Shown piece by piece: positions 1,288-25,995 of a stretch of DNA of 64,000 nucleotides. The position numbers were made by a program, and so were the translations under genes. Source of the DNA: an uncultured Alphaproteobacteria bacterium (GTDB taxonomy: Bacteria > Pseudomonadota > Alphaproteobacteria > HIMB59); the NCBI GenBank assembly GCA_902521465.1, contig CABYRL010000002.1, positions 58,777 through 122,776 on the forward strand. Reading direction: 5' to 3'. Numbering within the stretch: the first letter of the stretch is position 1; every line of letters starts with the position of its first letter. Under the pieces are notes generated by a model. That model searched no databases. It had not been told where the DNA came from and saw only the letters and a list, made by a program, of their open reading frames with translations.

Positions 1288-2595
1288 TTAACAATCTAGA
1301 GTTGTTTCTCTTTCCCAATTAGAAAGGTGTTTATTAAAAGTACCCCAATCTTGATTTTTTAGTTTGACATAGCTATTAACTAAATCATCACCAAAACCTG
1401 CTCTAATGATTTTTGATTTATCAAAATCACGTATTGCATCAAGAAGATTTAATGGCAATTTCTTTACTTTTCCAGCCTTGTGACCTTCTGTGTACATATT
1501 AATATCTAATCTTTTACCAGGGTCTCTTTTATTATTTAAACCGTCCAAACCTAAAAGTAAAATACCTGCTTGAAGTAAATAAGGATTTGTAGCTCCATCC
1601 ATTAATCTCAATTCAAATCTTCCTGCTCCAGGAACTCTAACCATGTGTGTTCTGTTGTTACCTGCCCAAGTAATCGAACTTGGTGACCAAGTTGCACCTG
1701 ATGTTGTAACACTACCGTTGATTCTTTTATATGAGTTTACAGTTGGATTAAAAACAGCAGCCATTTTGTCCGCACTTTCCATTATTCCACCTAAGAAATT
1801 GTAACCAGTTTTGGATAAACCTAATTCATCTTTTTTATCTAAAAACATATTTTTTTTGCCAGATTTATCCCAAATAGAAATATGACAATGACATCCATTG
1901 CCTGTTAAATTTGTGAAAGGTTTGGGCATGAAAGTCGCCCTTAATGAATGTTTTTCAGCAATAGATTTGACCATGAATTTAAAAAAAGCATGTCTATCTG
2001 CAGTTACTAAACAATCTGAAAAATCCCAGTTCATTTCAAATTGACCATTCGCATCCTCATGGTCGTTTTGGTAAGGTTTCCATCCAAGTGAGATCATTGA
2101 GTCACATATTTCAGTAATAACATCATATCTTCTCATTAATGCAGAGGAGTCATAGCATGGTTTTGCTTGCGTATCCCTTTGATCTGATAAAGAAGTCCCA
2201 TCTTCATTAACTAGAAAAAATTCACACTCAACACCTGACTTCATATAAAGATTTTTTTTAGCTGCTTTTTCTATTTGTCTTTTTAAGGCTATTCTTGGTG
2301 AGGTTTCTACTGGTTTACCATCCATAAACAAATCTGAGGCAACCCAAGCTATTTCTTTATTCCAAGGAAGCTGGATAACACTATCACCATCAGGCATACC
2401 AAACATATCAGAGTCAGCTGGAGACATATCAAGCCATGTTGCAAAACCAGCAAATCCAGCACCTTCAGATTGAATTTCATCTATAGCTGTTGCAGGTACA
2501 AGCTTTGATCTGAGCACTCCAAATAAATCTACAAAGCTTACAAAAAAATATTTAACACCATTTTTTTTTGCAAATTGGTGAAGGTTAGTTGCCAT
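1288..2595 (-). CDS. gmaS: Gamma-glutamylmethylamide synthetase (GlnT / 'type III' GS family)
   Basis: GAGFAGFATW in place of GFDGSS, ECEFF, DHEDANGQFEMN, TGNGCHCH, SGATWSP, RFELRLMD; GAGGAG RBS; linked to mgsC. Confidence 0.85.
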   Translation of the reverse strand: MATNLHQFAKKNGVKYFFVSFVDLFGVLRSKLVPATAIDEIQSEGAGFAGFATWLDMSPADSDMFGMPDGDSVIQLPWNKEIAWVASDLFMDGKPVETSPRIALKRQIEKAAKKNLYMKSGVECEFFLVNEDGTSLSDQRDTQAKPCYDSSALMRRYDVITEICDSMISLGWKPYQNDHEDANGQFEMNWDFSDCLVTADRHAFFKFMVKSIAEKHSLRATFMPKPFTNLTGNGCHCHISIWDKSGKKNMFLDKKDELGLSKTGYNFLGGIMESADKMAAVFNPTVNSYKRINGSVTTSGATWSPSSITWAGNNRTHMVRVPGAGRFELRLMDGATNPYLLQAGILLLGLDGLNNKRDPGKRLDINMYTEGHKAGKVKKLPLNLLDAIRDFDKSKIIRAGFGDDLVNSYVKLKNQDWGTFNKHLSNWERETTLDC

Positions 2596-4521: not shown

Positions 4522-5262
4522 TTGAATTTACTAATTATCAGTGGCATGGATCAAAACCATGATAATGAACATGTTAAATCAAATTCTTCTTATCAATATA
4601 GTTTTTTTGAAGAAATTATTAAAAAGCAAAATCCCCTCTCAAATATCTCGGTTTATAAACCTTACATTGAGGATGTAAATAAATTTAGTTTTGAAGATTA
4701 CGATGCCTTTTTATGGACCGGAGGTCTCGGTAATATTTATGATGACAATGATCACAATAAAAATCAGTTGAAGATATTTGATAGAATAGCAACTCTAGAA
4801 AGACCAATTTGGGGAAGTTGTTGGGGTCTTCAAGTGGTTGTAACAGCATTTGGAGGAAAAATATCAAGTTCTATGAGTCCAGAGTTTGGATATTCTGAAA
4901 AAATAAAAATTATAAAAAATCATTTTGTTTATAAAAATAAAAAAAATTTATTTACTGCCCCTGGTCATCATTATGATAGTTTAGAAACTCTTCCCAAGGA
5001 CTTTGACATAATTTCTGAGAATAATCATTCTATTCAATCTATATGTCATAAAAAACAAAACATATTTTGTACTCAATATCATCCAGAACTACCATACAAC
5101 TATATCGGTAAATTAATGAGTTATTGGAAAAGAAATTATTTAAAGATTATGAGTGAAAATGAATTTGAAGCATTATTAAATAAATTACAAAGTTTTGAAA
5201 ATGAAGATCAATTTAACAGAGAACTTGAATTACTGAATTGGTTAGAAAATATTAAATTATAA
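4522..5262 (+). CDS. Class I glutamine amidotransferase-like protein (possible gamma-glutamyl-amide hydrolase)
   Basis: FLWTGG, GSCWGLQ nucleophile elbow, QYHPE (Cys-His-Glu triad); TTG start. Confidence 0.85.
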   Translation: MNLLIISGMDQNHDNEHVKSNSSYQYSFFEEIIKKQNPLSNISVYKPYIEDVNKFSFEDYDAFLWTGGLGNIYDDNDHNKNQLKIFDRIATLERPIWGSCWGLQVVVTAFGGKISSSMSPEFGYSEKIKIIKNHFVYKNKKNLFTAPGHHYDSLETLPKDFDIISENNHSIQSICHKKQNIFCTQYHPELPYNYIGKLMSYWKRNYLKIMSENEFEALLNKLQSFENEDQFNRELELLNWLENIKL

Positions 5263-5550
5263 TTATTTTTTGGTAGCGATCATAATTAGTGATAAAAAAA
5301 TCACTGCTAAAAGACCACAAAAAACTGCTGCAAAAAAAATAGTGGATATAATGAACATAAATACTTTTATATCTGTAATCTTACTAAAAAAAAGTGGTGT
5401 CTGTAAAAACTGATCAACAGTGAGTATAAAAGTTAAAACAAAAAATCCCATCATAAAGCCTCTTTTGTAAAATTTAATCCATGATTTTTTAAAGTAATCA
5501 ATATTCATAATTTGAAGTAGTAATTTTATATTATGGTCATATAATTTCAA
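5263..5550 (-). CDS. Small two-TM hypothetical membrane protein (start uncertain)
   Basis: 95-aa ORF with two hydrophobic segments; fills the gap; its stop abuts the GATase stop. Confidence 0.55.
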   Translation of the reverse strand: MKLYDHNIKLLLQIMNIDYFKKSWIKFYKRGFMMGFFVLTFILTVDQFLQTPLFFSKITDIKVFMFIISTIFFAAVFCGLLAVIFLSLIMIATKK

Positions 5551-5584
5551 TTCGATAAGATTTAAATTTTAGGAGGAGACTAAC

Positions 5585-6982
5585 TTGGGTCAATATTTTG
5601 AAAATTTTAAAGACGCCTTACCTGATGTAAAAAAAGTTAGAAAAATTAAAAAGGATTTAGAAAAAAAAGGCGTAAAATACATTTATTCTAATTGGATTGA
5701 TTTTCTGGGTAGTCCAAAAACCAAGCCTATGCCTATATCTGATTTTGAGGATCTTTGTATGGGTAAAGGCCCTCAATTTGCTGTTCATTCTGTTTCCTTT
5801 GTTCCAGAATTAACTCCAGCAGATAATGATCAAATCCCTGTGCCAGATTTGGATAGTCTCGTTATATGTCCATGGGATAAAACATGTGCATGGGTTTTTG
5901 CAGATTTATATTGGAATGACAAACCTTACGATGTTTGCCCAAGAATGACGTTAAAAAAACAAATAAAGGAAAGCGCTAAATCTGACTTGAAATTTTTTGT
6001 TGGTATCGAACCCGAATTTTTCTTAATGAAGTGGGAGGGCGACAAACCAGTTAAAGCAATTGATAGAGATCCTATAAATTTGAGAAGACAAGCTTTTGGG
6101 TATGACTCAGAGTACTCAATAGATGGAATGCATTTTTTAAAAGAAATAATAGATATTTTAAATAATGATTTGAAATGGGATCTCCATGATGTCGTTGCTG
6201 AGGGCGCATATGGCCAGTATGAATTAGATTTCGGTTACACAGATATTTTAGGGATGGCTGATAGATTTGTATTTTTAAGAGTATTACTCAAGGAAGTTGC
6301 AAAAAAATATGGATATTTTGTATCATTTATGCCAAAGACAACTATTAGTGATTGGAGAGCTGGTGCTCACATTAATCATAGTGTGGCATCAATTAAAAAG
6401 AAAAATAATAACATATATAAGAATGGGAATAATTTCTCTGATAAAGCCTACAATGCTGTCGCTGGAATTTTAAAACATGGAGCAGCGATTACAGCTCTAG
6501 CGTGTCCAACTGTTAACTCATATAACGGATTTGTTCCTACAGTTGAGGGCCTTGATGGTGGCCGTCATACATGGGCTCCTACACACATGACATACGGCAG
6601 TAATAATAGATCAGCTATGATAAGACTACCACAAAATAGATATTGTATAGAAAATAGGGCATCTGATTTAACTCAAAATCCTTATTTAACTTTTTCTTTA
6701 TTAGCCGCAGCTGTTACAGAGGGTATCGACAAAAAAATGAAGCCCCCAAAACCAACTAATAAAAGTCTTTATGATTTGACCGAGAAAGAAAAAAAAGAGG
6801 TTACTACACTGCCAAGAAATTTATTAGAGGCAGTAGACGCTTTCGCTGCTGATAAATTAACTAAAAAAGTTTTTTCTGAGGCTATGATAAACAATTTTAT
6901 TGGATATAAATATGATGAGTGGTCTAGATATCATACAACTACAACTGATTGGGAAATCAAAGAATATCTAAAGTTATTTTAA
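5585..6982 (+). CDS. Atypical glutamine synthetase-family ligase (second GlnT-like paralog)
   Basis: GIEPEFF, EGAYGQYELDF, GAHINHS, NNRSAMIRLP, IENRASD; AGGAGGAG RBS and TTG start; amine- and glutamate-site residues differ from GlnA. Confidence 0.9.
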   Translation: MGQYFENFKDALPDVKKVRKIKKDLEKKGVKYIYSNWIDFLGSPKTKPMPISDFEDLCMGKGPQFAVHSVSFVPELTPADNDQIPVPDLDSLVICPWDKTCAWVFADLYWNDKPYDVCPRMTLKKQIKESAKSDLKFFVGIEPEFFLMKWEGDKPVKAIDRDPINLRRQAFGYDSEYSIDGMHFLKEIIDILNNDLKWDLHDVVAEGAYGQYELDFGYTDILGMADRFVFLRVLLKEVAKKYGYFVSFMPKTTISDWRAGAHINHSVASIKKKNNNIYKNGNNFSDKAYNAVAGILKHGAAITALACPTVNSYNGFVPTVEGLDGGRHTWAPTHMTYGSNNRSAMIRLPQNRYCIENRASDLTQNPYLTFSLLAAAVTEGIDKKMKPPKPTNKSLYDLTEKEKKEVTTLPRNLLEAVDAFAADKLTKKVFSEAMINNFIGYKYDEWSRYHTTTTDWEIKEYLKLF

Positions 6983-7999
6983 TTGATTAGTAAAGAGGAA
7001 CTACATAAATACCAATTAAATAATTTCAAATTAAAATCAGGCGACATAATAGATTTACAATTAAATTATTTAGCATTTGGGAAACTAAATTCTGACAAAT
7101 CAAATGTAATTTTATTTCCTACTAGGTATGCTGGTACACATCTTGAGCAAGGATATCTGATTGGTAATAATTTTCCCATAGACCCAGATAAATATTTCAT
7201 CATTATTCCAAATATGTTTTGTAATGGTGTTTCCTCCTCACCCAGTAATACAGAAATACCCTTTAATGGACCTAATTTTCCCTTAATTACAATATATGAT
7301 AACGTGCAAGCACAATACACTCTTCTAAAAGAAATATTTAACATAGAAAAAATTAAATTAGTTATAGGTTGGTCAATGGGAGGACAACAAGCATTTGAGT
7401 GGGCGTCATATTTTCCAGACATGGTAGAAAATATGATATCTATGTGTGGTCATGCTAAAACCACAGAGCATACATATGTATTTTTAGAGGGCGTATATGC
7501 TGCTTTGACTTCAGATCCAAACTGGAATTCTGGAAATTATGAAAAACAACCTCAAAATGGAAAAACAACAATGGCAAGAGTATGGGCTGGATGGGCGCAT
7601 GGGCAAGACTGGTTTAGGGAAAAAAAATATATCGATGATGGTTACAAAGATGCAAAAGAAGTTTTGGATAAACTTTGGAATAGAATTTATTATCGTAAGG
7701 ATGCAAATGATTTATTAGCGATGATAAGAACTTGGCAAGAGCACGACATAAGCAACAATAATAAATTTAATAATCAATTTGATAAAGCTCTTAACTCTAT
7801 TACTGCGCGATGTATTTTAATGCCAGGTAAAAATGATTTATACTTCCCCCCAGAGGATAATGAAATTGAATTAAAAAATATTAAAAATGGTGAATTACGT
7901 ATCATTCCTTCAAGCTACGGTCACTATGCTGGAGCAGGTAAGTCCAAAGAAGATTTAAATTTTGTTAATGATGCTATAAAGGATATATTGATTACTTAA
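6983..7999 (+). CDS. Alpha/beta hydrolase, homoserine O-acetyltransferase (MetX)-like
   Basis: GWSMGGQQA nucleophile motif, DLYFPP, YGHYAG; TTG immediately follows the ligase stop (TAATTG). Confidence 0.85.
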   Translation: MISKEELHKYQLNNFKLKSGDIIDLQLNYLAFGKLNSDKSNVILFPTRYAGTHLEQGYLIGNNFPIDPDKYFIIIPNMFCNGVSSSPSNTEIPFNGPNFPLITIYDNVQAQYTLLKEIFNIEKIKLVIGWSMGGQQAFEWASYFPDMVENMISMCGHAKTTEHTYVFLEGVYAALTSDPNWNSGNYEKQPQNGKTTMARVWAGWAHGQDWFREKKYIDDGYKDAKEVLDKLWNRIYYRKDANDLLAMIRTWQEHDISNNNKFNNQFDKALNSITARCILMPGKNDLYFPPEDNEIELKNIKNGELRIIPSSYGHYAGAGKSKEDLNFVNDAIKDILIT

Positions 8000-24579: not shown

Positions 24580-25995
24580 TTAGTAATCGTAGTACATGTC
24601 GAACTCTGCAGGTGTAACTAGCAGTTTATTTGGTTCGATTTCTTCTTCTCTTTTGTATTCGATATATGACTCGATTAAATCCTTAGTAAATACATTACCT
24701 TCTAAAAGAAAATCATGGTTAGATTCAAGATTGTTAATCGCTTCCTCAAGAGTGCCAGGTACTTCTTTTACTTTAGATTGCTCTTCAGGAGGTAAATCAT
24801 AAAGATTTTTATCCATTGGTTCACCGGGATCAATTCTATTCTTAATCCCATCTAGACCTGCCATAAGCATAGCTGAAAATGCTAAATATCCATTTGCAGT
24901 TGCATCTGGACATCTAAACTCAACTCTTTTTGCTTTAGGAGATGGTGAGTATGCAGGTATTCTACATATAGCACTTCTATTTCTATTAGAGTATGCAAGC
25001 TTAACTGGAGCCTCATAACCTGGAACTAATCTCTTGTAAGAGTTAATAGTTGGATTTGTAAAAGCTAATAAAGATGGTGCGTGCTTTAGCAAACCACCAA
25101 TATAAAATTTTGCTTCATCACTAAGATTAGCGTATCCACCTTCACCATAAAATACTGGTTTACCGTTTGACCAAATACTTTGATGACAATGCATTCCTGA
25201 ACCATTGTCGTTTGAAAGAGGTTTTGGCATAAAAGTAGCACTTAAACCATTGCTTTTTGCTGTGTTTCTTACAACGTATTTATATTTTTGAAGATCATCG
25301 GCCATCTTAACTAATGTGTCGAATTTTAAATCAATCTCACATTGACCAGCAGTAGCAACTTCGTGGTGTTGCGCTTCAACACTCATACCAATTGCAACCA
25401 TGTGATTTACCATTTCTGATCTAACATCTTGCATAGTGTCATGAGGTGGGCACGGGAAATAGCCTCCTTTATTTCTAACTTTATAACCTAGATTTGGACC
25501 TTCATCTGTGCCTGTATTCCAAACAGCTTCACCTGAGTCAACAGAAAAAGAAGAGTGATGAGGGTGCGTGTTAATTTGAACATTATTGAAAAGAAAAAAT
25601 TCAGCTTCTGGTCCAAAGAAAATACTATCACCAACTCCTGAGGTTTTAACGTATTCTTCTGCTTTTTTTGCAACGTATCTTGGATCTTTATCGTACTTTT
25701 GTCCAGTAATTGGATCTTGAATATCACATATCAGAACTAGAGTAGGATCAGTAAAAAAGGGATCTACAAATGCAGTCTCAATATCTGGAATTAATATCAT
25801 GTCACTAGCTTCAATTGACTGAAAACATCTAATTGAAGAGCCGTCGAAACCAATACCTTCCTCAAATACGTCCATTTCAAATGTATTAATATGGTTTGAA
25901 AAGTGCTGCCATGTTCCTAAAGGATCAGTAAATCTAAAATCAATATACTTAATACCATTTTCATCGATCATTTTTTGTAATGATTTTTTGTCCAT
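24580..25995 (-). CDS. glnA: Glutamine synthetase type I-beta
   Basis: GFDGSSI, GPEAEFF, HHEVA, DNGSGMHCHQS, KRLVPGYEAP, RVEFRCPD, NLYDLP adenylylation site. Confidence 0.98.
   Translation of the reverse strand: MDKKSLQKMIDENGIKYIDFRFTDPLGTWQHFSNHINTFEMDVFEEGIGFDGSSIRCFQSIEASDMILIPDIETAFVDPFFTDPTLVLICDIQDPITGQKYDKDPRYVAKKAEEYVKTSGVGDSIFFGPEAEFFLFNNVQINTHPHHSSFSVDSGEAVWNTGTDEGPNLGYKVRNKGGYFPCPPHDTMQDVRSEMVNHMVAIGMSVEAQHHEVATAGQCEIDLKFDTLVKMADDLQKYKYVVRNTAKSNGLSATFMPKPLSNDNGSGMHCHQSIWSNGKPVFYGEGGYANLSDEAKFYIGGLLKHAPSLLAFTNPTINSYKRLVPGYEAPVKLAYSNRNRSAICRIPAYSPSPKAKRVEFRCPDATANGYLAFSAMLMAGLDGIKNRIDPGEPMDKNLYDLPPEEQSKVKEVPGTLEEAINNLESNHDFLLEGNVFTKDLIESYIEYKREEEIEPNKLLVTPAEFDMYYDY

What the first reader, a model, noticed from the sequence alone, without database searches (positions are those of the whole stretch)
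5585..6982. GS-family ligase altered at both amine- and glutamate-binding positions
Seen, compared by eye with the GlnA in this window: metal ligands are kept (EPE, E..G Q.E, H, E.R), but GFDGSS becomes QFAVHS, DNGSGMHCH becomes DWRAGAHIN, NSYKRLVP becomes NSYNGFVP, and YEAP becomes TWAP. Established: Asp50/Glu327 handle ammonium and Arg321 binds the glutamate alpha-carboxylate. Inference: the acyl donor may not be glutamate, making it a possibly new amide ligase.
Basis: partly seen in the sequence, partly recalled or inferred. Interest (0 to 1): 0.55.

Follow-up and report, generated by a model that had tools for sequence, protein, structure and literature searches.

The report
Glutamine-synthetase-like ligase with relocated arginine
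This gene encodes an intact but uncharacterised relative of glutamine synthetase in which the arginine that normally anchors glutamate has moved to a neighbouring loop; it is always paired with a small serine esterase and sits in the methylated-amine islands of many abundant ocean bacteria, so it is probably a new amine-processing ligase whose substrates are unknown.

Summary
The ORF at 5585-6982 (+), 465 aa with a TTG start and an AGGAGG ribosome-binding site, is a complete GS-fold enzyme.

Two of the changes (Asp50 to Ala, Glu327 to Trp) are ordinary for the GmaS/GlnT branch. The K320/R321 to N-G change is special: Arg is present in 85 of 85 other GS-family representatives. It always occurs together with Gly265 to Arg. 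Both positions contact the glutamate analogue in the GmaS crystal structure. The arginine has therefore been relocated rather than simply lost, and "the acyl donor is not glutamate" remains unproven.

The GmaS catalytic Asp177 is Val here, so this is not a GmaS.

The gene is translationally coupled to a MetX-fold serine hydrolase. The pair is conserved in HIMB59, SUP05, SAR324, sponge symbionts and others, often inside methylated-amine islands. In a 201-genome sample it is strongly associated with TMAO demethylase.

No member has been characterised. Earlier agents of this scan reached the same reading on other DNA. Verdict: a new variant of a known kind, of moderate interest.

The parts
5585..6982 (+). 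GS-fold ATP-dependent carboxylate-amine ligase, 465 aa (P0001), member of the 'Arg-swap' clade
   Evidence: Pfam PF00120 at 277 bits. Best NCBIfam match is TIGR03105 at 359 bits, below its cut-off of 470. AF2 model has pLDDT 94; the top Foldseek hit is GmaS 9qur with TM 0.89/0.93.
5571..5587 (+). Ribosome-binding site AGGAGG (5571-5576) and TTG start codon (5585-5587)
   Evidence: Read directly from the sequence. Orthologues start at the same place.
6353..6358 (+). Codons for Trp257-Arg258, equivalent to E. coli N264-G265 and RhGmaS T230-G231. This is the gained arginine.
   Evidence: The position is Arg in every member of the clade and in none of 85 outgroup representatives.
6524..6529 (+). 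Codons for Asn314-Gly315, equivalent to E. coli K320-R321 and RhGmaS K287-R288. This is the lost arginine.
   Evidence: The position is Gly in every member of the clade and Arg in 85 of 85 outgroup representatives.
6083..6097 (+). Family-specific insertion RRQAF in the Tyr179 loop, which forms part of the nucleophile site
   Evidence: R167 and R168 are gaps in all 85 outgroup representatives, Q169 in 83 and A170/F171 in 56. The AF2 model is only moderately confident here (pLDDT about 61).
6194..6196 (+). Codon for Val204, at the position of GmaS catalytic Asp177
   Evidence: Mapping from the 7cql alignment. PMC7948447 states that Asp177 is strictly conserved in GmaS. Val204 is invariant in the family.
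6983..7999 (+). Translationally coupled MetX-fold alpha/beta serine hydrolase, 338 aa; its start codon directly follows the ligase stop codon
   Evidence: NCBIfam PRK07581 at 425 bits, above its cut-off of 332. Best PDB matches are 5e4y and 5d6o. Catalytic motifs GWSMGG, D and H are present. It is the next downstream gene in at least 47 of 71 loci.
4522..5262 (+). Class I glutamine amidotransferase-like protein, 246 aa; a companion found only in this lineage
   Evidence: Pfam GATase at 69 bits and a weak Peptidase_C26 match. Present in 32 of 37 HIMB59-group loci and in 0 of 36 other loci.
5263..5550 (-). Small conserved membrane ORF lying between the amidotransferase gene and the ligase gene; the likely ATG start is near 5508
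   Evidence: Hydrophobic translation. Conserved in 32 related loci. Called as an 82-84 aa gene in relatives.

Best explanation
The gene encodes a working ATP-dependent carboxylate-amine ligase of the glutamine-synthetase fold. It belongs to a distinct, uncharacterised family on the GmaS/GlnT branch.

Shown:
- The two-metal site, the ATP-binding residues and the phosphoryl-transfer residues are intact.
- The ammonium-specific residues Asp50 and Glu327 are absent, as in amine-using relatives.
- The methylamine-specific catalytic Asp of GmaS is Val.
- The arginine that binds the alpha-carboxylate of glutamate has left the mobile flap (position 321) and reappears at position 265 on the opposite wall of the same pocket.

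Inferred:
- The enzyme still forms an acyl-phosphate from an acid that carries an anionic group near that pocket. Glutamate, or a close N-substituted or chain-length analogue, is the most likely acid.
- It then joins that acid to an organic amine other than ammonia or monomethylamine.
- The translationally coupled MetX-fold serine hydrolase acts on the product or on a precursor.
- The pair works in the breakdown of methylated or quaternary amines. It lies at the edge of a Tdm-Tmm-Mgd-Mgs-GmaS-Amt island here, inside the mgsABC-gmaS operon in SUP05, next to mgs and Tdm in SAR324, and it co-occurs with TMAO demethylase genome-wide.
For: Fold and catalytic residues:
- The fold assignment rests.
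- Residue mapping onto RhGmaS uses and PMC7948447. Kept: Glu124, Glu179, His235, Arg327, Arg312, Arg317, Glu186, Tyr147 and Lys30'. Changed: Gly231 to Arg, Arg288 to Gly, Asp177 to Val, Gln175 to Asp, Asn188 to Asp.

The Arg swap defines one clade:
- The clade comprises this family plus P0122, P0126 and P0140.
- Seven of the eight clade sequences form a well-supported group in the tree, and the AU test does not reject a single clade (p 0.66).

The family is tight and widespread:
- 538 loci were found in genome contigs.
- 1783 clusters scored E <= 1e-20, a count that also takes in other GS-family proteins; the 120 listed are all at least 60% identical.

The hydrolase partner and its neighbours are described.

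The methylated-amine island upstream of the window is described.

Association with Tdm:
- A full-length Tdm is present in 33 of 43 family-bearing genomes outside the HIMB59 group.
- In an even sample of 201 genomes of the class, the family is in 8, Tdm is in 12, and both are in 6. Fisher p is 3e-7, or 5e-5 without the own genus.
Against: - No member of the family has been assayed, and neither the acid nor the amine is identified.
- The position of the Arg258 side chain could not be measured because no model coordinates were available.
- Arg321 is invariant in every other GS-type enzyme sampled, so its removal may signal a truly different acid.
- The partner is an esterase-type hydrolase, not the class I amidotransferase-type gamma-glutamyl hydrolase used in known gamma-glutamylation pathways.
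- Genome-level association with Tdm could partly reflect shared ecology, since these are marine oligotrophs.
- Two family-bearing genomes in the sample had no Tdm match.
Confidence: 0.6

Rival explanations
1. The acyl donor is not glutamate. The enzyme would activate a different acid: for example aspartate, an N-methylated glutamate, a betaine-type acid, an omega-amino acid or a dicarboxylate. It would therefore make a new kind of amide.
For: - Arg321 is Arg in 85 of 85 other representatives and is lost only in this clade.
- Position 264 becomes a bulky hydrophobic residue: Trp, Phe or Leu across the clade.
- The flap is longer here.
- The partner is an esterase-type hydrolase rather than a gamma-glutamyl hydrolase.
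Against: - A new Arg always appears at 265, a residue that contacts the same ligand in GmaS. Residue 321 is always Gly, as if to make room for it.
- Position 264 is not conserved in glutamate-using relatives either: Asn 23, Ala 20, Thr 13.
- All characterised members of this branch use glutamate.
- Neighbours in some lineages act on gamma-glutamyl amides: a class I amidotransferase, and the MgsA-type amidotransferase.
Confidence: 0.3
2. The ligase-hydrolase pair supplies the missing dimethylamine step. The ligase would attach dimethylamine to an acyl carrier, so that dimethylamine produced by Tdm can enter the N-methylglutamate route in bacteria that lack DMA monooxygenase.
For: - dmmDABC is reported absent from SAR11 and from abundant marine Gamma- and Deltaproteobacteria (PMC5520151). 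The family occurs in these same groups.
- Tdm is present in 33 of 43 family-bearing genomes, while a strong HODM-like match is present in only 1 of 43.
- The own genome has Tdm, Tmm, Mgd, Mgs and GmaS, but only a lone weak HODM-like gene.
- Asp177 to Val, with new acidic residues nearby, would fit a bulkier amine.
Against: - There is no clean complementarity. Of 11 Tdm-positive genomes, 5 have neither the family nor HODM and 1 has both.
- The equation of PF11927 with a Dmm subunit rests on memory and had no positive control.
- No demethylating enzyme for a tertiary amide is linked to the pair in HIMB59.
- A second module upstream (DAO, 489-aa GS-like gene, second mgsABC set) is an equally good candidate.
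Confidence: 0.1
3. The gene is a redundant glutamine synthetase or GmaS paralogue, or an inactive regulatory pseudo-enzyme.
For: The genome carries seven GS-family genes. The best family-model hits are the GS and GlnT models.
Against: - Scores fall below every curated cut-off.
- Asp50, Glu327 and GmaS Asp177 are all replaced.
- All catalytic metal, ATP and phosphate residues are kept, and the sequence is conserved at 60% identity or more across phyla. This argues against a pseudo-enzyme.
Confidence: 0.04

Closest known systems
Gamma-glutamylmethylamide synthetase GmaS (RhGmaS 7CQL-7CQX, PMC7948447; Methylovorus mays GmaS 9QUR; NCBIfam TIGR03105 GlnT type)
   Same: - Same fold: TM 0.89/0.93 and about 30% identity.
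- Same metal, ATP and phosphate residues.
- Asp50 to Ala and Glu327 to Trp, as in GmaS.
- Same genomic theme of methylated-amine islands.
   Different: - Scores 359 bits against a cut-off of 470.
- The glutamate-binding Arg288 is Gly and Gly231 is Arg.
- The catalytic Asp177 is Val; Gln175 and Asn188 are both Asp.
- A five-residue insertion in the Tyr179 loop and a longer flap.
- Always paired with a MetX-fold hydrolase.
Catabolic gamma-glutamyl-amine ligases: PuuA (NF045547), IpuC, AtdA1/TdnQ of aniline dioxygenase, GlnA4 (from general knowledge)
   Same: - A GS-fold ligase that lacks the ammonium residues.
- Encoded with oxygenases (Rieske type in many lineages) and a hydrolase. This matches the ligate, oxidise, hydrolyse logic of those pathways.
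   Different: - PuuA model score is 182 bits against a cut-off of 650.
- Those enzymes keep NSYKR.
- Their hydrolase is a class I amidotransferase-type enzyme, not a MetX-fold esterase.
Type I glutamine synthetase GlnA (TIGR00653; E. coli/Salmonella numbering)
   Same: Overall fold, two-metal site, Arg339, Arg344, Arg359, His269.
   Different: - Scores 274 bits against a cut-off of 429.
- Asp50, Glu327, Asn264, Gly265, Lys320 and Arg321 are all replaced.
- A true GlnA is present elsewhere in the window (24580-25995, minus strand).
MekB/CgHle-type esterases with a homoserine-acetyltransferase fold (PDB 5E4Y, 5D6O; their identity as small-ester esterases is recalled from memory, Tolzer et al. 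2016). This is the closest known relative of the partner gene.
   Same: The partner protein matches these chains at 190 and 177 bits over its full length and has the Ser-Asp-His triad.
   Different: The substrate is unknown. Those esterases are not known to be coupled to a GS-like ligase.

Membership tests
GS-fold carboxylate-amine ligase superfamily (Pfam PF00120) | Catalytic-domain profile match and GS fold | tested here: met
   277 bits against a cut-off of 24. AF2 model has pLDDT 94; Foldseek TM 0.89/0.93 to GmaS 9qur.
GS-fold carboxylate-amine ligase superfamily (Pfam PF00120) | Two-metal site (E129, E131, E212, E220, H269, E357) and phosphate arginines (R339, R344, R359) | tested here: met
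   All are aligned and identical, and all are invariant in the family.
Type I glutamine synthetase GlnA (TIGR00653) | Curated model cut-off | tested here: not met
   274 bits against a cut-off of 429.
Type I glutamine synthetase GlnA (TIGR00653) | Ammonium-handling Asp50 and flap Glu327 | tested here: not met
   Ala66 and Trp330 occupy these positions.
GmaS / GlnT type (TIGR03105) | Curated model cut-off | tested here: not met
   359 bits against a cut-off of 470. The window's own GmaS-type gene scores 646 bits.
GmaS / GlnT type (TIGR03105) | Catalytic Asp177, Glu186 and Arg312, stated to be strictly conserved in GmaS (PMC7948447) | tested here: not met
   Glu186 and Arg312 are kept as Glu213 and Arg342, but Asp177 is Val204.
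GmaS / GlnT type (TIGR03105) | Glutamate-binding Arg288 on the flap, with Gly231 opposite | tested here: not met
   Gly315 and Arg258 occupy these positions.
Gamma-glutamylputrescine synthetase PuuA (NF045547) | Curated model cut-off | tested here: not met
   182 bits against a cut-off of 650.
Gamma-glutamyl-amine ligases in general | Glutamate as the acyl donor | not testable with these tools
   Needs an enzyme assay or a liganded structure. The sequence shows a relocated Arg rather than an absent one.
Arg-swap clade (defined here) | Arg at the 265 position together with Gly at the 321 position | tested here: met
   This combination is found in P0001, in 11 orthologues, and in P0122, P0126 and P0140. 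It is found in none of 85 other representatives. A single clade is not rejected.

The most novel reading that the evidence does not exclude
The Arg-swap ligase and its esterase partner form a previously unrecognised enzymatic step of marine methylated-amine catabolism. One possibility is an ATP-dependent capture of dimethylamine, or of another Tdm- or Rieske-derived amine, on an acyl carrier that may not be plain glutamate. That would close the dimethylamine bottleneck described for SAR11-type bacteria, SUP05 and SAR324, which lack DMA monooxygenase.
Probability: 0.12. Interest if true: 0.8.

Novelty: new variant of a known kind. Interest (0 to 1): 0.5.

Why it matters
Methylated amines are a large pool of marine organic nitrogen and are precursors of aerosols. 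How the most abundant ocean bacteria process them beyond TMAO demethylation is still partly open (PMC5520151).

This ligase-esterase pair is conserved across HIMB59, SUP05, SAR324, sponge symbionts and other groups. It is physically and statistically tied to those pathways, yet it has no assigned reaction.

It is also a clear natural example of a substrate-anchoring arginine hopping between two walls of an active site in one of the best-studied enzyme folds. That is useful for understanding and engineering the specificity of GS-type amide ligases.

Tried and rejected
- **Alternative gamma-glutamylcysteine ligase.** Rejected. The own genome (92% complete) gave no match to gshA of either type or to gshB, so there is no glutathione pathway to complete.
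- **Ligase-hydrolase fusion as a Rosetta stone.** The three long ORFs in high-GC loci are upstream extensions of the hydrolase frame across the ligase gene, not fusions. A search among longer proteins found nothing, which is weak evidence.
- **The class I amidotransferase as a universal partner.** Rejected. It is present in 32 of 37 HIMB59-group loci and in 0 of 36 others. It is only 21% identical to the amidotransferase next to the distant clade member P0126.
- **Two independent origins of the Arg swap.** This would have been strong covariation evidence, but it is not supported. The constrained one-clade tree is not rejected.
- **Complementarity with DMA monooxygenase.** Inconclusive.
- **Promoter and terminator scan.** The number of sites is no higher than in shuffled sequence, so it is uninformative.
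- **ESM Atlas and literature searches.** They returned only generic glutamine synthetase labels and no characterised member.
- **Measuring the Arg258 side chain in the AF2 model.** Not possible, because the tools do not expose coordinates.

Full report
**What is there.**
- The ORF at 5585-6982 (+) is open for 465 codons.
- It starts at a TTG codon, 8 nt after an AGGAGG at 5571-5576.
- It matches Pfam Gln-synt_C at 277 bits.
- Its best NCBIfam hits are all below their curated cut-offs:
  - GlnT/GmaS type, TIGR03105: 359 bits against 470.
  - GlnA: 274 bits against 429.
  - PuuA: 182 bits against 650.
- The same window holds a true type I GlnA (24580-25995, minus strand; 668 bits).
- It also holds a GmaS-type gene (1288-2595, minus strand; 646 bits on TIGR03105).
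- An AlphaFold2 model built on a 100-sequence alignment is confident (pLDDT 94, pTM 0.94). The exceptions are the Tyr179 loop (about 61) and the flap (about 72).
- The nearest solved structures are the two GmaS enzymes, 9qur and 7cqn, with TM 0.86-0.93.

**Check of the observation.**
- I aligned the protein with the window's GlnA, the window's GmaS-type protein, E. coli GlnA (locus L001) and seven orthologues.
- The metal ligands E129, E131, E212, E220, H269 and E357 are kept, as are R339, R344 and R359.
- The changes are QFAVHS, DWRAGAHIN, NSYNGFVP and TWAP. Codon positions were verified.
- These residues are invariant in twelve family members, eleven of them 60-85% identical to the target.
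- Two of the four changes are not special. Asp50 to Ala and Glu327 to Trp are also found in the window's GmaS-type protein and in both crystallised GmaS enzymes. The RhGmaS paper describes exactly these replacements, Ala48' and Trp300 (PMC7948447).

**What is special.**
- A search of 1.84 billion representatives gave 104 full-length GS-family representatives.
- In a 100-row alignment, the position of Arg321 is Arg in 85 of 85 sequences outside the clade. The position of Gly265 is Gly in 80, Ala in 4 and Asn in 1.
- Only four groups have Gly at 321: the target family, P0122 (52% identity), P0126 (40%) and P0140 (35%). All four have Arg at 265.
- In the tree, seven of these eight sequences form a well-supported group. 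The AU test does not reject a single clade (p 0.66). The swap is therefore best read as one event that defines a clade.
- PMC7948447 reports that the glutamate analogue MetSox is held in RhGmaS by Glu124, Glu179, Gly231, His235, Arg288 and Arg327.
- The printed alignment to chain 7cql, once the chain's 20-residue numbering offset is removed, maps Gly231 to Arg258 and Arg288 to Gly315. The other four residues are kept.
- The arginine has therefore moved between two residues that touch the same ligand, and the vacated position is always the smallest residue.
- I read this as relocation of the carboxylate anchor from the mobile flap to the fixed wall, not as simple loss. This is inference. The side-chain position could not be measured because no coordinates are exposed.

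**Nucleophile site.**
- The same mapping shows that GmaS Asp177 is Val204 here. The paper calls Asp177 the base that deprotonates methylamine and says it is strictly conserved.
- Gln175 and Asn188 both become Asp.
- Tyr147, Glu179, Glu186 and Lys30' are kept.
- The narrower family, together with P0122, also carries a five-residue insertion (RRQAF) in the Tyr179 loop.
- The enzyme is therefore neither a glutamine synthetase nor a GmaS. The pocket is still acidic, as expected for a cationic amine.

**Genomic context in this organism.**
- Identical or near-identical loci come from single-cell genomes and MAGs of HIMB59-type Alphaproteobacteria.
- The assembly is 1.34 Mb, 92% complete, and carries seven GS-family genes.
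- Upstream of the window, in order, lie the following:
  - Tdm (DUF1989 + GCV_T);
  - a GCV_T protein;
  - Tmm (FMO);
  - three Mgd/sarcosine-oxidase-like subunits;
  - one mgsABC set;
  - an IclR regulator;
  - a DAO oxidase;
  - a 489-aa GS-like gene;
  - a second mgsABC set.
- The window then continues with two unknown ORFs, gmaS, amt, a class I amidotransferase, a small membrane ORF on the other strand, the target, and a MetX-fold hydrolase whose start codon directly follows the target's stop codon.
- This order is kept in relatives whose hydrolase is only about 69-77% identical.

**Context elsewhere.**
- ORFs of 75 loci were clustered.
- The hydrolase (NCBIfam PRK07581, 425 bits) is the next downstream gene in at least 47 of 71 loci. 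Three more cases were hidden by over-long ORF calls.
- In 36 loci from SAR324, SUP05/Thioglobus, other Gammaproteobacteria, sponge symbionts, Kiloniellaceae and others, the recurrent neighbours are as follows:

| Neighbour | Loci (of 36) |
|---|---|
| CntA/Stc2-type Rieske oxygenase | 20 |
| Lrp/AsnC regulator | 17 |
| Glyoxalase I, next to the CntA/Stc2-type oxygenase | 16 |
| D-2-hydroxyacid dehydrogenase | 16 |
| Second Rieske oxygenase | 15 |
| EutQ-type cupin | 12 |

- In Thioglobus the order is ligase-mgsA-mgsB-mgsC-gmaS-hydrolase (L058, L069).
- In SAR324 the ligase sits beside mgsCBA, and Tdm lies about 7 kb downstream (L043, L044).
- The amidotransferase is a companion only in the HIMB59 group: 32 of 37 loci there against 0 of 36 elsewhere.
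- The own genome has no CntA-type Rieske gene, so the ligase-hydrolase pair is the conserved core.

**Genome-level association.**
- A full-length Tdm orthologue (50-59% identity where complete) is present in 33 of 43 family-bearing genomes outside the HIMB59 group. Many of these assemblies are incomplete.
- In an even sample of 201 genomes of the window's class, the family occurs in 8, Tdm in 12 and both in 6. Fisher p is 3e-7, or 5e-5 without the own genus.
- Related genomes are not independent and shared ecology may contribute, but the link agrees with the physical clustering.
- A strong match to PF11927 occurs in 1 of 43 family-bearing genomes. From memory, I take PF11927 to be the heme subunit of DMA monooxygenase.
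- The own genome has only a lone weak copy, next to a TauE exporter.
- PMC5520151 reports that dmmDABC is absent from SAR11 and from abundant marine Gamma- and Deltaproteobacteria, and calls this a bottleneck.
- Complementarity between the family and the HODM-like gene is not clean. Of 11 Tdm-positive genomes, 5 have neither and 1 has both.
- The idea that this pair supplies the dimethylamine step therefore stays a low-probability, high-interest possibility.

**The partner.**
- The hydrolase has the GWSMGG nucleophile elbow plus Asp and His.
- It matches PDB 5e4y and 5d6o best, at 190 and 177 bits.
- From memory, these are the MekB and CgHle esterases with a homoserine-acetyltransferase fold. 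I could not retrieve the paper.
- An esterase-type partner is unusual for gamma-glutamylation pathways, which use class I amidotransferase-type hydrolases. This is the main point in favour of an unusual product.

**Verdict.**
- My estimate is about even odds that glutamate or a close analogue is retained, and about 0.3 that the acid is truly different.

**Earlier findings of this scan.**
- Earlier agents looked at this same protein and its relatives on other DNA (e1-5245583, e1-5066274, e1-5112600, e1-2763040).
- They reached the same two readings: a relocated arginine, and an orphan ligase-esterase pair in an amine island.
- I reproduced those points independently before reading them, and they are not independent evidence.
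- New here are three things: the quantitative invariance table, the mapping of the GmaS catalytic Asp to Val, and the genome-level association with Tdm.

Noticed in passing
Own genome, G000:C2:38800-58790 (locus L101), directly upstream of the window: A complete methylated-amine island: Tdm, a GCV_T-only protein, Tmm, Mgd-like subunits and two separate mgsABC sets. A further module of IclR, DAO oxidase and a 489-aa GS-like gene has no assigned role.
   Followed up: partly
Own genome: Seven GS-family genes in a 1.34-Mb streamlined genome: GlnA, GmaS, the target, a 489-aa form, and three more on contigs C5, C9 and C10.
   Followed up: no
window 5263-5550 (-): A small hydrophobic ORF of about 82 aa, probably starting at the ATG near 5508. 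It is wedged tail-to-tail against the amidotransferase gene and is conserved in 32 related loci. It matches no family.
   Followed up: partly
window 4522-5262 (+): A standalone class I amidotransferase-like protein with an intact Cys-His-Glu signature. It follows amt and accompanies the ligase only in the HIMB59 group.
   Followed up: partly
L044:7960-9674 (-) and equivalents in 16-20 other loci: A CntA/Stc2-type Rieske oxygenase always followed by a glyoxalase I that scores above the curated cut-off. This suggests an oxygenase whose product is a 2-oxoaldehyde. The unit is absent from the window's genome.
   Followed up: partly
Own genome, G000:C6:21940-22455 (L104:6935-7648, minus strand): A lone weak HODM_asu-like (DUF3445) gene at 57 bits, next to a TauE/SafE exporter. 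No other DMA-monooxygenase subunits lie nearby.
   Followed up: partly
Own genome: No match to gshA of either type (PF04262, PF04107) or to gshB (PF02955) in the 92%-complete assembly. Glutathione synthesis was therefore not found with these queries.
   Followed up: no
L044:17651-18130 (-): A 159-aa ORF with weak matches to the N-terminal part of GS only. It lies between the cluster and Tdm in SAR324 and may be a remnant of a GS-family gene.
   Followed up: no
L088 (context of P0122) and L085 (context of P0126): Distant members of the Arg-swap clade have different neighbours. P0122 sits with hydantoinase A/B pairs, a formamidase/acetamidase, a Rieske oxygenase and RidA. P0126 sits with an NCS1 permease, AllG, a Peptidase_C26 amidotransferase and an AsnC regulator. 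The clade as a whole therefore serves small nitrogen-compound catabolism.
   Followed up: no
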